Under the pieces are notes generated by a model that saw only the letters and a program-made list of their open reading frames with translations, was not told the DNA's origin and did not search any database. DNA of 64,000 nucleotides from the NCBI RefSeq assembly GCF_009914755.1, contig NC_060935.1. One strand, 5' to 3'. Made by a program: the position numbers and the translations under genes. The stretch's first letter is position 1. Every line of letters begins with the position of its first letter. Source of the stretch: the human T2T-CHM13v2.0 reference genome, Homo sapiens. Below are positions 37,911 through 60,579 of this stretch, piece after piece.

Positions 37911-40900
37911 CAACACTTCTTAATGGGATAATGTTTCAGATAACATCCAGTGCCCGGACTCCAGCACTCTATAAATGCTGGCTGGTGTGCTTTTCTGGGA
38001 TTCCAGGGTGGGGTCCAGAGACTGAAGAGGGTCTGCTTTCTGGCCCAGGGGAAGAGGGGCAGGTGGCTCACTAGGAGCTGTCCTGGCATCCTTTGTCCCC
38101 GTCCACTTACCAGTTATGTGACCTCGGGCAGGTCTTGCACTCTGGCACTCAATTAGCATCTGTGTTAATTGGGGTAAGAGTATCTGCCACGTCTCACAGC
38201 CTGGTGATGGACAAACAAAACAAACATTTTTTAGGCTGGGAGAGGCCTCAGAGGTTGGCTGTCATATTGCAAACGAGGGAGCAGAGACTCAGAAAAGTAA
38301 CTTAGTTGTTTAAGGTCACAGAGCACCTCTCTCCCCACAGGCAGGGAGCCGGTAATTGGGCTGAGCCTCAGGAGTAACCCTTCTCTCTCTGCCTCTCCAG
38401 CCCCTACCTTATGCCTGGCCCATTCAGCTGGTCTGTTCTCCAGGCCCCTAGGACTGGGTGGGCTAAGATGAGTGGTCTAGAAATCCCTCCCCAGCTGGGC
38501 TGGACTGAATGAGGGGCTGGCCGAGGAGCGGGTGTTGATGGAGTATGGGAGATTGTCCTCACAGGCAGTGTGGGCCGTTTCTCTAGACCTCCTGCCCCCA
38601 TCTCCTTCCTGTCCCTGTTTGAGCCGTGCTCTTCTTCTTCAATCCCTTTCTGTCTGCCTTCTCTTTCCACCCCTAGATTTCTCACCATCTTCAGTGATCC
38701 CTCCTCCTTCCTTTCTGCCTCCTCTGCATTCTCTCCTTGCCCTTGCTTCTCTGATCTGCCTTTTTTCTCCAGCCTCAGCATTCAGGTTGTCCTCATAGTG
38801 GAACTGGGACTCTGGGGGTGGCTGGGTTGGGTTGCCTGGAGGCCGGGAATGTTCAGGAGAGCCTTCATTGGGAGCCCATGGGAGCAGGAGTCAGCTCCTC
38901 CTGTTGGCAGCTCCAGCATTTTCGAACAAAAATGGCTCTTCCAGGAGTTGAGTTTGGCGAAGAGACAGTGCCTGCCCAAAGTATGCAATGCTTTTATCTT
39001 TAGCTCAGCTCCTGAGCCCTCATGCAACTCTTTGGACATCTTCCTGCAAAGGACGGTGGGATCTTGTCTTTCTGGGGCCTCAGGGTCTCCAAAGATGGGC
39101 TGACTAAGCTTCCCTAGCCTGGGACCTGAACCCTCCACCCTCCTCTCTCTTGAGCTCTTTCTCCCAGGGGAAGCTGCTCGAATGAGGGGAGTTGGCCAAC
39201 ACAGTTTTCTACTCTCAGACCCCATTGAGGTGAGCACACAACAGTGTTCTGTGTGAGGGTCTGGATACACTCCCCACCCTCCCAGGCCCGGCACCGTGTC
39301 GCCCTGCCCCAGCCCAGAGCTTGCCTCTGTTGGCTTTGTGACCCTCGCTTTGTACTGTGGCTTTGTTCTGCCTTAGGGACCAGCTGGTCCCCTGCTGTGG
39401 TTCCACACAGTGGAGACTGATCCCTGACCACTCATTCAGCTGCCTGGCGGCCCTGGGGCAAGTGTTTGTCCCCCATCTCCCAAAATGGCGGGGTGCAGGG
39501 GCTCCCTGCCCGGAGTCCCAACCCTGCCAAGGCAGAGGGAATGGGGAACAGCTGCGCTGGCCCATTCCGGCTCCATATGGATTTGGTTTGACAACAAAGC
39601 TCCCTCTGTGTGTTCCCAAGCCCCTTACATAACCAGGGGCTGTGGGCAGAGGAGGAAAGGAGGAGGAGGTGGAGATGGGGACCAGGAGACACCAGGATGG
39701 GATGGCTGGAAAGGACACAGGGACCGGGAGGAGAGGGCAGGAGACGAGGGCCAGAGAGGAGGAGAGGGTGGGAGCAGGAGGGGGAAGTGCTGGTCTTGAC
39801 CTCCCAGTTCTGCCTCCTGCTTCCTGGGGAGGGGAGGGTGGAGTCCAGCCACCGACTTCTGCTTGTGGATGCTTTGTCTTCTTTTCTTTGGACCTTTCCC
39901 ACCAGTCCTGGATAGGCTGAGGAGGGGCCGTGGGACCTGTCTGGGGTGAGGTGAGGTCAGGTGTTGGGCTGGATGTGGGAGGCTGTTCCTTGGCCGCAGC
40001 CTGTAACTGAATAAATGCCATTAAAAGGGGAATCCATTTCCTCCCTCACTCCTGGCTTCCATTGCCTTCCCCCAGGCCCCAGCCCTGGTTCCAGAATCCC
40101 TCTGACCACTCCTCTTGTGCTCAGGAGGGCAGAATAACTGCAGCCTTTCCCTGTGCCCTGCCAGGCTGGTCCCGGGCCCCCTCTCAGCCCACTCATCCAG
40201 GGATGCAGCTCTGGCCTTGGCCCACCCCCATCAGAGGGCCTGTGGCCCTGATCACCGCACTCCCCACTCTGTGACCAGACGTTCTCTCCTGAGCATCGCT
40301 GACCCTGCAGCTGTCCAAATAGAGCAAGAAGTGAATGTTCTCTTTGGGGCACAGCTGGACTGGCAGCCCTGCAGGGTCAGGTGAGCTGCCAGTCCTGGGT
40401 GTGTTCTCGGGGGTGGGGGTGGGAGGATCACGTCCTGGGCTGAGATCCCTTCAGCTCCTCCTGGGCAGGAGGAAACAGCCATGCAGGGGCGGCCAGGAGG
40501 ACTGGGTGGCGGGTGGTTCTGGGCTCTCCCAGCTTCGGTTGGGGCTGGGACCCTGGGGGACATGCTCTCCTGGGTGTTCCCAGGCTCTGTGTTTGGCCTG
40601 TGCCTCAGTGTGTGGGTTTTCTGGCACCAGGCTTCCTTGGGAAGAGCCTCTGGTTGTGCACCAGCCCTGAGGGTGGGGCTCATCCCAGGCTGCAGGGGAC
40701 TGAGGGCCGAGCTCTTCCACCTTGAGGACAAGGATGGTTCCTCAGGGCTGGGAGGAGGAGGAGGCGCTGGCCAGGACCTTAGATTACGCAGGGCATGGTG
40801 TTGGGGCCTCACAGATGATGGAGAAGCCAGAGTTCAGGCACTTGGCATGACCCCTGGCATCGCCTTCAGTTGATTTAGTGTCTCTGCCCTGGGATATTCC

Positions 40901-58600: not shown

Positions 58601-60579
58601 TGGCTGGGTCTCCTCTCAGGTGCCAGAATCTTTCTGGGAGCTGAGCCTGGCTGGGCAGAGGGCGAGGAGCCCAGGATTCCCCTTTCCGTGACTTTGGAGG
58701 AACGAGGTTCCTGAGGGCTGGCACAGCCACTCCCTGCCCCTTAGAGGCTCTGGGCTGCCTGGTGACAGCTTCGGGGACCTGCAAGCTGACAGAGTCTCCA
58801 GGAGCCAGAGCTGGGGTGGGAGGAACCCACTGGGCCTGAGGGAGGTAGAGCAGCAGCAGCAGCAGCTGAGCCCAGCCCCCGGCCAGCCCTGAGGAATGGG
58901 GGAAAAGAGTGCCCTGGCTTGGGGGGGCCCTCAAGCCCCGGAAGCTGTATGTGGGCATGGGGGGCGGGGGCAGAGAGGAGGAGGACTGAGAAGTGGGTGT
59001 ATTTGGGCAGGTGTGTGTGTGTGACCAAGCTTGCGGGCGCCTGAGTATGGACTAGTGTGTTTGTGCTGGAGGAGCCTGTGTAGGTTACTGACATGGGAGG
59101 GCCGGTGTGAGCTGCAGGGACCGGAGAGCTGCTGGAAGGGGCTGTCTATGCCTTCAGGCTCTGAGTGTGGATGCAGCTGGGCCTGTTCAGGCAGATTCAC
59201 CAGAGGGGCTACTGCGCAGAGCCTGGGCCCTGGACACCTAGAAGGGCCCCTCCTCCCCTCGTCTTCCCTCCCTCATGGCCCACCTTTACTCTGAGGGGGT
59301 GGGCTTCCTGCGGGGGACAAACTGGAGAGGGACTCTCTTGCCGCCTTCTCTGTTCCTGGGGACAGGCTGCTGCAGGGTGGAGGGCTTGCTTTTCCTGCCC
59401 ACCCTCATCTTTGCCGAGTCCTCGTCTGGGGGCCCTGCCCCACTCTCCCTTCCCAATGCAGGGCCCTCTCCTCTGGCGAGCCTGCCTTGATACTCCCCGG
59501 CTCAACCCCTTTAACCCTGCTGGCTCCTAATGGGACTAATGGGACTTCAGGTGTGGACCCTTGGACCCTCCGCTGCACAGTTCCAGAAACTTGTTCATCA
59601 AGTGCCAGGCTGACCATGGTGTCCGTCTCAGTGCCCAGCAGTTGTTCTGGTGATGGGAGGTGGGAGTACAAGGTCTGCCGAGTGAGGCAGAGGAAAGGGG
59701 TTTCTGAGCCCAGATCTCCGGTGCTCCAAGACACTCAAAACCAGAGCTGAGAGCCTGAATTCAGAGGCTGTACTGTGGGGCAGGGCTGGAATCTGTGGCA
59801 CCTGTGTAGGGACTCCAGGGCTGAACGTTGCCTTTGCTGTCCCTGCTTGGGGATTTTGGGGTACTGGGTTTGGATAGAGTGTGTCATCTGCAGAGGCAGC
59901 ACTGTTCTGGAAGTGGACTCTGCTCAGGTGTGGCGGGCCTGCCTGTGGGGTCACCATGGACAGGAGGCTGGTGTCTGGTCAGGCTGAGGGATCCGTGTGC
60001 CAGCCCTTCTGGGAAGGCTGAATGGGGCGGAACTGGTCAGGGCCTGGCACCAACTCCAGGATGTGCTACACCCAGACAGACAGATGGAGAGCCACCTCCC
60101 TAGGGGCCTCCTCCCCCTCCCCTTCTGCATGCCACCACACCCCAGCAGCATCTCCTGAGGCTGGGCCATGGGTGAATCTGAGTCGAGGGCAGGACAGAGT
60201 GGGAGTGGCAGTGCCTCTGCCTGTCTCCCTGGCCGTGGCAGGTCCTTTGTCACATATGGGCCAGGAGAGGTGAGTGTGATTGTGGTAGTGGTGGGGGCAG
60301 TGGCTGAGGACCCCTCTCTTTGCTGGGCTGGGACAGAGCTTGAATGGAGAGGGGCCGCCTTGTGCCTGGGAAGGGAGGACCAGGTGTCGCTGGCACCTTC
60401 CACGTCCTGAGTGCTTGTTCTGTGCCCAGCCCCTGCTGAGGCTGCGGACATTAAATACCAGGATATGTTTTGAGACTCAGGACACCTCTGAGGACTTGCT
60501 GCTGTTATCCACATTTAAAAGACGAGGACTCTGAGGCTCTGAGAGGTTAAGTACCTGGTCCAGGTCACCTGGTCAGTTT

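What the first reader, a model, noticed from the sequence alone, without database searches (positions are those of the whole stretch)
39561..58760. Old intronic duplication with a roughly 99% identical, indel-free 2 kb core: likely gene conversion inside ST3GAL4 intron 1
Seen: 39561-41550 matches 56775-58764 at a fixed offset of 17214 with about 19 substitutions by my manual count. None was seen in the first 400 bp or so, and about 8 in the first 1.4 kb. Identity falls abruptly to roughly 75-85% with many indels just outside the core (39050-39560 vs 56150-56774, and 41550-42290). Inference: one duplication event cannot give both levels of identity, so the core has been homogenised recently by non-allelic gene conversion. 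It is unique GC-rich DNA with no obvious transposon origin, so it may be a duplicated regulatory module evolving in concert. This is the best candidate for an undescribed system in the window.
Basis: partly seen in the sequence, partly recalled or inferred. Interest (0 to 1): 0.8.

Follow-up and report, generated by a model that had tools for sequence, protein, structure and literature searches.

The report
Gene-conversion patches in ST3GAL4 duplication
Two old copies of a roughly 10 kb stretch that carries alternative start exons of the human ST3GAL4 gene contain a few near-identical patches, which is the ordinary footprint of one copy having been overwritten from the other rather than a new kind of system.

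Summary
Window 39561-41550 and 56775-58764 differ at 19 of 1990 positions with no indel, and these are the only two copies in the genome.

The picture is larger than reported:
- The duplicon is about 10 kb: A 39055-48673, and B 56157 to 66923, which runs past the window end.
- Background divergence is 15.4% with many indels. 11 of 11 dimeric Alus are copy-specific, and one Alu-monomer-like fragment is shared.
- There are three low-divergence tracts, not one: T1 2.0 kb at 99.05%, T2 0.65 kb at 97.6%, T3 0.7 kb at 96.7%.
- A third, older partial copy lies just after B.

The region is not merely intronic. Exons 41678-41740, 42753-42807 and 60179-60269 lack acceptors, so they are alternative first exons. 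The last two are paralogues inside T2.

T1 has sharp edges, no indels, and a CpG-transition-rich, neutral-looking substitution spectrum. This fits interlocus gene conversion, a well-known process. The tracts are confined to homology blocks between heterologies.

The duplication is already listed from the UCSC self-chain track (PMC4079513). No primate sequences were available, so the tree test is still open.

Verdict: a real but ordinary feature, of low interest.

The parts
39055..48673 (+). Duplicon A, about 9.6 kb including 5 copy-specific Alus
   Evidence: Collinear BLAST chain to B at offsets 17102-18642
56157..64000 (+). Duplicon B. It continues past the window end to extended coordinate 66923 and has 6 copy-specific Alus
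   Evidence: Extension fetched as L003
39561..41550 (+).
56775..58764 (+). Tract T1 in B
42276..42929 (+). Tract T2 in A: 15 mismatches in 631 sites (97.6%), with one 23-base indel. Contains first exon 42753-42807
59750..60391 (+). Tract T2 in B. Contains first exon 60179/60251-60269, the paralogue of A 42717/42789-42807
43816..44513 (+). Tract T3 in A: 23 mismatches in 697 sites. 11 of them fall in a 50-base patch at 44183-44232 (78% identity); outside that patch, 12 in 647
61811..62507 (+). Tract T3 in B
41678..41740 (+). Annotated alternative first exon in A. It has no AG acceptor upstream and a GTATGT donor, and lies 128 bases downstream of T1
   Evidence: Hub annotation; splice context
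58884..58946 (+). Paralogue in B of exon 41678-41740, with the same GTATGT donor kept. Not in the exon list given to me
43625..43746 (+). Alu-left-monomer-like fragment with an A-rich tail, shared with B at the same place relative to unique flank. It predates the duplication
61157..61276 (+). The same Alu-monomer-like fragment in B
60577..60873 (.). B-specific Alu at the right-hand limit of the T2 homology block. A is contiguous at 43080/43081
44677..44950 (.). A-specific Alu at the right-hand limit of the T3 homology block. B is contiguous, with a 14-base overlap at 62620-62633
39759..39841 (-). Two matches to the degenerate 13-mer CCNCCNTNNCCNC in the mismatch-free 5' part of T1. The same two are in B at 56973-57055. 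This is a lead only
   Evidence: The motif was recalled from memory

Best explanation
This is an old duplication in direct orientation, of early-primate age by inference. It copied a roughly 10 kb block of the ST3GAL4 alternative-promoter and first-exon region to a site about 17-18 kb downstream. Most of the two copies then diverged freely, to about 15% substitutions with many indels and 11 private Alu insertions.

In three insertion-free homology blocks, one copy was later overwritten from the other by interlocus (non-allelic) gene conversion. The inferred mechanism is:
- A break in one copy is repaired from the paralogue on the same chromosome or on the sister chromatid.
- This happens without crossover, so length and collinearity are preserved.
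- Tracts stop where homology is broken by indels, Alus or strongly diverged sequence.

At least two ages of event are implied: T1 at 0.95% divergence, against T2 at 2.4% and T3 at 3.3%. Short divergent patches inside T1 and T3 suggest either discontinuous or several tracts.

Shown: the mosaic, its statistics, the sharp edges and the first exons. Inferred: conversion as the cause, its timing, and that it is a neutral by-product rather than selected.
For: 1. The core has exactly 19 mismatches in 1990 bases and no indel. The offset is 17214 in the left flank (D13) and 17206 just right of it (D17), so a segment was replaced by an equal-length homologue, not inserted.

2. A two-state HMM (1.4% vs 15.4%) is preferred by BIC: 4182 against 4229 for three states and 4285 for four. 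It beats a single rate by 2*dlnL = 439.

3. Background segments carry 88 indel events in 4094 sites; T1 carries 0 in 1990 (P 2.6e-19).

4. The left edge is abrupt. There are 12 mismatches in the 31 sites before position 39563, then none for 400 bases. The right edge coincides with the first indels.

5. The T1 differences are 16 transitions and 3 transversions, and 6 are CpG transitions. T1 holds only about 30 CpGs, so the CpG rate is roughly 15 times the non-CpG rate. Flanks have a transition/transversion ratio of 1.3-1.7. T1 is CpG-depleted (0.16). This is what young, unconstrained, germline-methylated DNA looks like.

6. Tracts sit inside homology blocks bounded by copy-specific insertions: the B Alu at A 43080, the A Alu at 44640, and 467 B bases (61277-61742) with no counterpart in A just left of T3.

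7. T1 differs in divergence from T2 (Fisher P 0.013) and from T3 (6e-5), so there was more than one event.

8. The duplication is also in an older reference: a ST3GAL4 self-alignment of 6583 matching bases is listed in PMC4079513 Table 4. It is therefore not a T2T artefact.

9. Interlocus gene conversion between nearby human duplications is common (PMC10172114, passages read).
Against: - No orthologues from other primates and no other human haplotypes could be examined, so the defining phylogenetic signature is untested.
- GC bias could not be assessed. The GC allele is in A at 9 and in B at 10 of the 19 T1 differences, and there is no outgroup for T1.
- Around the T2 first exon, the third copy C is also better conserved: A-C identity is 78.6% over 229 columns, against 68.5% and 56.8% in the neighbouring 111-column stretches. 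Some purifying selection may therefore add to the T2 identity.
- The trend of more differences towards the 3' end of T1 is weak. Its P of about 0.01 comes from a split chosen after seeing the data.
Confidence: 0.8

Rival explanations
1. Strong purifying selection on both copies of a regulatory module has kept T1-T3 nearly identical since the original duplication, with no sequence exchange.
For: - T1 ends 128 bases upstream of a first exon, and T2 contains paralogous first exons used by RefSeq transcripts.
- Copy C is best conserved around the T2 exon: 78.6% against 57-69% in neighbouring stretches.
Against: - It would require about 2 kb to evolve roughly 16 times more slowly than its flanks, with step-like edges and no indel.
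- T1 is heavily CpG-depleted, and its few differences show the neutral CpG-transition excess.
- A-B identity in T2 (97.4%) far exceeds A-C identity (78.6%) at the same sites.
Confidence: 0.05
2. The high-identity segments come from a later replication-based copy-and-replace event or a double unequal exchange, not from classical break-repair conversion. The outcome is the same but the mechanism differs.
For: The sequence alone shows only that homologous replacement occurred. The three tracts and the divergent patches (44183-44232, and the cluster at 40999-41045) could reflect template switching.
Against: - Collinearity is exact and no junction sequence, microhomology scar or length change is seen at the T1 edges.
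- Different tract ages need several events, which is what recurrent conversion predicts.
Confidence: 0.1
3. Assembly artefact: one core was copied onto the other during assembly or polishing.
For: None found. Near-identical 2 kb paralogues can mislead short-read polishing.
Against: - The two cores still differ at 19 sites spread over the tract.
- A self-alignment of the same size class is listed for ST3GAL4 from an older, clone-based reference (PMC4079513).
- Both copies carry RefSeq first exons (hub table).
Confidence: 0.02

Closest known systems
Interlocus (non-allelic) gene conversion tracts in human segmental duplications (for example the genome-wide maps in PMC10172114; defined in the abstract of PMC4467073)
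   Same: - Paralogous, collinear, intrachromosomal copies only 17 kb apart.
- Discrete kilobase-scale tracts of near identity in a more diverged background.
- Length and order are unchanged.
   Different: - The host duplication is small and old (about 85% background identity). Only its converted part passes the usual threshold of more than 1 kb and more than 90% identity.
- No population evidence is available here.
- ST3GAL4 and the coordinate prefixes I searched were not found in the 2 supplementary files of PMC10172114 that are held as text. A third file could not be read.
Concerted evolution of tandemly duplicated genes with conversion-free diverged flanks (globin and opsin-type examples; 'escape from conversion' theory). 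Recalled, not read here
   Same: The identity profile is bimodal. Conversion persists only where homology remains long and uninterrupted, and stops at indels and insertions.
   Different: The converted DNA here is non-coding promoter and first-exon sequence inside one gene, not coding paralogues.
Alternative 5' exons and promoters of ST3GAL4 (isoform names A1, A2, B1-B3 and BX are recalled; the BX transcript and an intronic TNF-responsive element are mentioned in PMC5187527, passages read)
   Same: The duplicons carry acceptor-less first exons with GT donors that splice into the common body of ST3GAL4.
   Different: I could not map the named isoforms to these exons. None of the papers I found mentions that two of the first exons are paralogues.

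Membership tests
Interlocus gene conversion tract | Donor and acceptor are paralogous and collinear | tested here: met
   Collinear chain A 39055-48673 / B 56157-66923
Interlocus gene conversion tract | A discrete tract whose divergence is significantly below that of the flanking paralogous sequence | tested here: met
   1.4% vs 15.4%, 2*dlnL = 439; binomial P 2e-58
Interlocus gene conversion tract | Non-reciprocal replacement with no change of length or order | tested here: met
   0 indels in 1990 bases; offsets 17214 and 17206 on the two sides
Interlocus gene conversion tract | Phylogenetic incongruence: the tract groups by species, the flanks group by copy | not testable with these tools
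   No primate genomes or other human haplotypes are held
Interlocus gene conversion tract | GC-biased transmission | tested here: inconclusive
   GC allele in A at 9 and in B at 10 of the 19 T1 differences; no outgroup for T1
Segmental duplication (operational definition: more than 1 kb, more than 90% identity; PMC10172114) | A pairwise alignment longer than 1 kb at more than 90% identity that is not a common repeat | tested here: met
   39277-41905 vs 56487-59101: 95.0% over 2634 columns. Only 2 copies genome-wide
CpG-island promoter | High CpG observed/expected ratio (about 0.6 or more, recalled) together with high GC | tested here: not met
   GC 61.6% but CpG observed/expected 0.15-0.16 in both cores, and 0.16-0.20 in T2
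Transposable element or dispersed repeat | Many copies dispersed in the genome | tested here: not met
   T1 has 2 places, T2 has 3 and T3 has 2, all at this locus. The search skips very common words, so this is a lower bound
Protein-coding or structured-RNA gene duplicate | A match to a protein or RNA family | tested here: not met
   0 Rfam matches in 38500-64000. Of the 7 ORF translations from the core that I scanned, 0 are above the Pfam cut-off; one PHF5 hit scores 19 bits against a cut-off of 26.7

The most novel reading that the evidence does not exclude
The near-identity may not be a neutral by-product. ST3GAL4 would then carry twin alternative promoter and first-exon modules that are kept interchangeable by recurrent, possibly hotspot-initiated, conversion. 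Two PRDM9-like motifs sit in the cleanest part of T1 in both copies. Selection would favour homogeneity, and the 2 kb of 99% identity in direct repeat would also predispose to a recurrent 17 kb deletion or duplication that changes promoter dosage.
Probability: 0.12. Interest if true: 0.4.

Novelty: new member of a known kind. Interest (0 to 1): 0.2.

Why it matters
**Mainly practical.**
- About 2 kb at 99% identity, plus two 0.7 kb tracts, lie next to alternative ST3GAL4 start exons. Short reads there (ChIP, ATAC, CAGE, variant calls) will multi-map.
- Paralogous sequence variants can look like SNPs in a gene that, as I recall, is known from lipid, alkaline-phosphatase and coagulation association studies.
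- The direct repeats are a plausible substrate for a 17 kb non-allelic deletion or duplication that would remove or double first exons.

**For evolution.** It is a tidy small example of conversion surviving only in homology islands of an old duplication. It does not open a new question.

Tried and rejected
- **Primate or mouse orthologues:** no collection holds them, so the tree test and the comparison with the mouse St3gal4 tandem repeat were not possible.
- **Coding or RNA origin of the core:** rejected. There are 0 Rfam matches, and only a sub-threshold PHF5 hit, taken as chance.
- **CpG island:** rejected.
- **G-quadruplex clustering as a break source:** only 3 loose motifs per duplicon, with no concentration at tract edges.
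- **Third copy of T1:** none found by BLAST or nhmmer over 94 kb, or in the whole genome.
- **Copy C as an outgroup to polarise differences:** too few sites to be useful. In T2 region 42701-42929 the counts are 2 A-derived, 3 B-derived and 1 unresolved.
- **Clean first 400 bases as a sign of a nested younger tract:** not significant as a scan (P 0.26).
- **Literature.**
  - 'ST3GAL4' + 'segmental duplication': 2 papers.
  - 'ST3GAL4' + 'gene conversion': 5 papers.
  - 'hST3Gal IV' + 'promoter': 3 papers.
  - None describes conversion or paralogous first exons here, judged from listings and the passages read. Only PMC4079513 lists the self-alignment.
  - Two searches failed on term format.
- **Supplements of PMC10172114:** the 2 files held as text have no ST3GAL4 or matching coordinates, and a third file is unreadable. 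The large event tables may not be held.
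Full report
**1. The observation**

An ungapped comparison of window 39561-41550 with 56775-58764 (offset 17214) gives exactly 19 mismatches in 1990 bases and no indel. The first mismatch is at core offset 402, and 8 fall in the first 1400 bases.

A search of the whole genome that holds the window (the human T2T assembly, G000) finds only these two places for the core. 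The core is GC-rich (61.6%) but strongly CpG-depleted (observed/expected 0.15-0.16), so it is not a CpG island. It has no Rfam match. None of the 7 ORF translations I scanned has a Pfam match above the cut-off. The long open frames are what GC-rich DNA gives by chance, and one PHF5 hit at 19 bits lies below the 26.7-bit cut-off.

**2. The real extent of the duplication**

BLAST of the region against itself, with 30 kb fetched downstream of the window, shows a collinear chain. It runs from A 39055-48673 to B 56157-66923, with offsets drifting from 17102 to 18642 because of private insertions. The duplicon is therefore about 10 kb, and B runs past the window end.

Over 7412 gap-free aligned sites there are 687 mismatches. 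A hidden Markov model with two mismatch rates, 1.4% and 15.4%, is preferred by BIC over three or four rates. It beats a single rate by 2*dlnL = 439. The low-rate state marks three tracts, not one:

| Segment | A coordinates | Mismatches / sites | Identity |
|---|---|---|---|
| Left flank | 39055-39560 | 82 / 464 | 82.3% |
| T1 | 39561-41550 | 19 / 1990 | 99.05% |
| mid1 | 41551-42275 | 90 / 688 | 86.9% |
| T2 | 42276-42929 | 15 / 631 | 97.6% |
| mid2 | 42930-43815 | 72 / 515 | 86.0% |
| T3 | 43816-44513 | 23 / 697 | 96.7% |
| Right part | 44514-48673 | 386 / 2427 | 84.1% |

- Eleven of the 23 T3 mismatches lie in one 50-base patch, 44183-44232.
- Pooled background is 630 mismatches in 4094 sites, or 15.4% (Jukes-Cantor 0.172), with 88 indel events inside the aligned pieces.
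- T1 has no indel events (P 2.6e-19).
- T1 is less diverged than T2 (Fisher P 0.013) and T3 (6e-5).

**3. Age markers**

Using one Alu of the window as a probe, I located 11 dimeric Alus inside the duplicons, 5 in A and 6 in B.
- For 9 of them (7 insertion sites) the other copy is contiguous at the site, and at several sites the two flanks overlap by 10-17 bases, as target-site duplications would. At the other two sites the other copy keeps a short non-Alu gap: 50 B bases opposite A 46571-46892, and 138 A bases opposite the B Alu pair 63738-64496.
- So 11 of 11 dimeric Alus are copy-specific.

One element is shared. An Alu-left-monomer-like fragment with an A-rich tail lies at A 43625-43746 and B 61157-61276.
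- In both copies it directly follows the same unique sequence, which is about 90% identical by eye over roughly 60 bases.
- A similar short direct repeat possibly flanks it in both copies.

The duplication therefore came after that insertion and before all 11 Alu insertions. With mutation rates of 1-2.2e-9 per site per year (recalled), a distance of 0.172 gives about 40-85 Myr, which points to early primate evolution (inference). On the same recalled rates (0.5-1e-9), T1 was last homogenised about 5-10 Myr ago, and T2 and T3 earlier.

**4. A third copy**

Profiles built from the A/B alignment find a further, older partial copy C just after B, at extended coordinates 66878-67364 (T2-like, E 1.5e-69) and 67616-67992 (T3-like, E 4.6e-16).
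- Over 431 shared columns, A-B identity is 95.4%, A-C 67.5% and B-C 67.3%.
- C has CT where A and B have the donor GT.
- No T1-like sequence exists in C or anywhere else.

**5. What the DNA is**

For the selected RefSeq transcript the region is intron 1. However, the exons of other transcripts listed by the hub at 41678-41740, 42753-42807 and 60179/60251-60269 all lack an upstream AG and end at good GT donors, so they are alternative first exons.
- Exon 42753-42807 in A and exon 60215-60269 in B are paralogues and lie inside T2.
- T1 ends 128 bases upstream of first exon 41678-41740.
- The B paralogue of that exon (58884-58946) keeps the same GTATGT donor, but it is not in the exon list I was given.

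The duplication thus copied part of the alternative-promoter region of ST3GAL4. That ST3GAL4 has several 5' isoforms is known. A review mentions the BX transcript and an intronic TNF-responsive element (PMC5187527, passages read). I could not map named isoforms onto these exons.

**6. Mechanism**

The evidence fits interlocus gene conversion:
- Replacement is by an equal-length homologue, with the offset preserved on both sides.
- There are no indels.
- The left edge is step-like: 12 mismatches in the 31 sites before the tract, then none for 400 bases.
- The right edge coincides with the first indels.
- Tracts are confined between heterologies: the B Alu at A 43080, the A Alu at 44640, and 467 B bases (61277-61742) with no counterpart in A just left of T3.

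The 19 T1 differences are 16 transitions and 3 transversions. Six are CpG transitions, although T1 has only about 30 CpGs. The flanks have a transition/transversion ratio of 1.3-1.7. This is the signature of recent, unconstrained germline mutation. Together with the deep CpG depletion, it argues against long-term strong constraint as the cause of identity.

The divergent patch in T3, and a cluster of 5 differences in 47 bases at 40999-41045 in T1 (permutation P about 0.01), suggest discontinuous or multiple tracts.

The bimodal profile is what the 'escape from conversion' theory predicts: conversion continues only where uninterrupted homology remains (theory recalled, not read here).

Two matches to the degenerate 13-mer associated with human recombination hotspots (recalled) lie in the mismatch-free 5' part of T1 in both copies. 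The motif is over-represented in the window as a whole, at 16 matches against 4.8 expected, and some of those lie at positions that mark as Alu copies. This is only a lead.

**7. Evidence against, and limits**

- I had no primate orthologues and no other human haplotypes, so the defining phylogenetic test is open.
- GC bias cannot be judged.
- Around the T2 first exon, copy C is also better conserved: 78.6% against 57-69% in neighbouring stretches. Some selection may therefore contribute there.
- The 3' increase of differences within T1 is weak and its test split was chosen after seeing the data. The 400-base clean stretch is not significant as a scan (P 0.26).

**8. Comparison with what is known**

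Interlocus gene conversion between nearby human duplications is well documented and mapped genome-wide (PMC10172114, abstract and passages; PMC4467073, abstract start in the listing).

The ST3GAL4 self-alignment itself is listed at 6583 matching bases, from the UCSC self-chain track, in PMC4079513 Table 4. That also rules out a T2T-specific artefact.

The searches found no paper describing conversion or paralogous first exons at this locus. The held supplements of PMC10172114 do not mention it, although one file was unreadable and the large event tables may not be held.

**9. Verdict**

It is an ordinary instance of a known process in a catalogued duplication, not an undescribed system. It matters mainly for read mapping, for paralogous variants, and for a possible 17 kb non-allelic rearrangement affecting ST3GAL4 start exons. 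Interest is 0.2.

Noticed in passing
Outside the window: extended coordinates 66878-67364 and 67616-67992 (L003 2878-3364 and 3616-3992): A third, older partial copy (C) of the T2 first-exon module and of part of T3, about 67% identical to A and B. The donor GT is changed to CT, and a (GT)n run follows it.
   Followed up: partly
window 43625-43746 and 61157-61276: An Alu-left-monomer-like fragment with an A-rich tail, shared by both duplicons at the same place. All 11 dimeric Alus are private to one copy. Together these bracket the age of the duplication.
   Followed up: partly
window 44183-44232 (B 62178-62227): A 50-base patch at 78% identity (11 mismatches) inside the otherwise roughly 98-99% identical T3. 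It is either an unconverted island or patchy repair.
   Followed up: partly
window 40999-41045: A cluster of 5 of the 19 core differences within 47 bases (permutation P about 0.01). There is also an adjacent double change at 39974-39975.
   Followed up: partly
window 58884-58946: The B paralogue of first exon 41678-41740 keeps the GTATGT donor but is not in the exon list supplied. It may be an unannotated or unused first exon.
   Followed up: no
whole window: The degenerate 13-mer CCNCCNTNNCCNC occurs 16 times against 4.8 expected from shuffles. Several matches lie at positions that mark as Alu copies.
   Followed up: no
literature: PMC4079513 Table 6: Mouse St3gal4 is listed with a 19,106-base tandem repeat of 1236-base units. 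Whether it is homologous to the human duplicon could not be checked.
   Followed up: no
window 59098-59383 and 61277-61742: B-only stretches (195 + 77 bases, and about 466 bases) with no counterpart in A and no Alu match. They are either deletions in A or insertions of unknown origin in B.
   Followed up: no
window 48566-48619: A 19-base tandem repeat of 2.9 copies at the very end of duplicon A.
   Followed up: no
window 46980-47826 and 48182-48673; also 26065-26258: The AT-rich right-hand parts of the duplicon share weak internal similarity with each other and with a site at 26065-26258. This is probably an old dispersed repeat.
   Followed up: no
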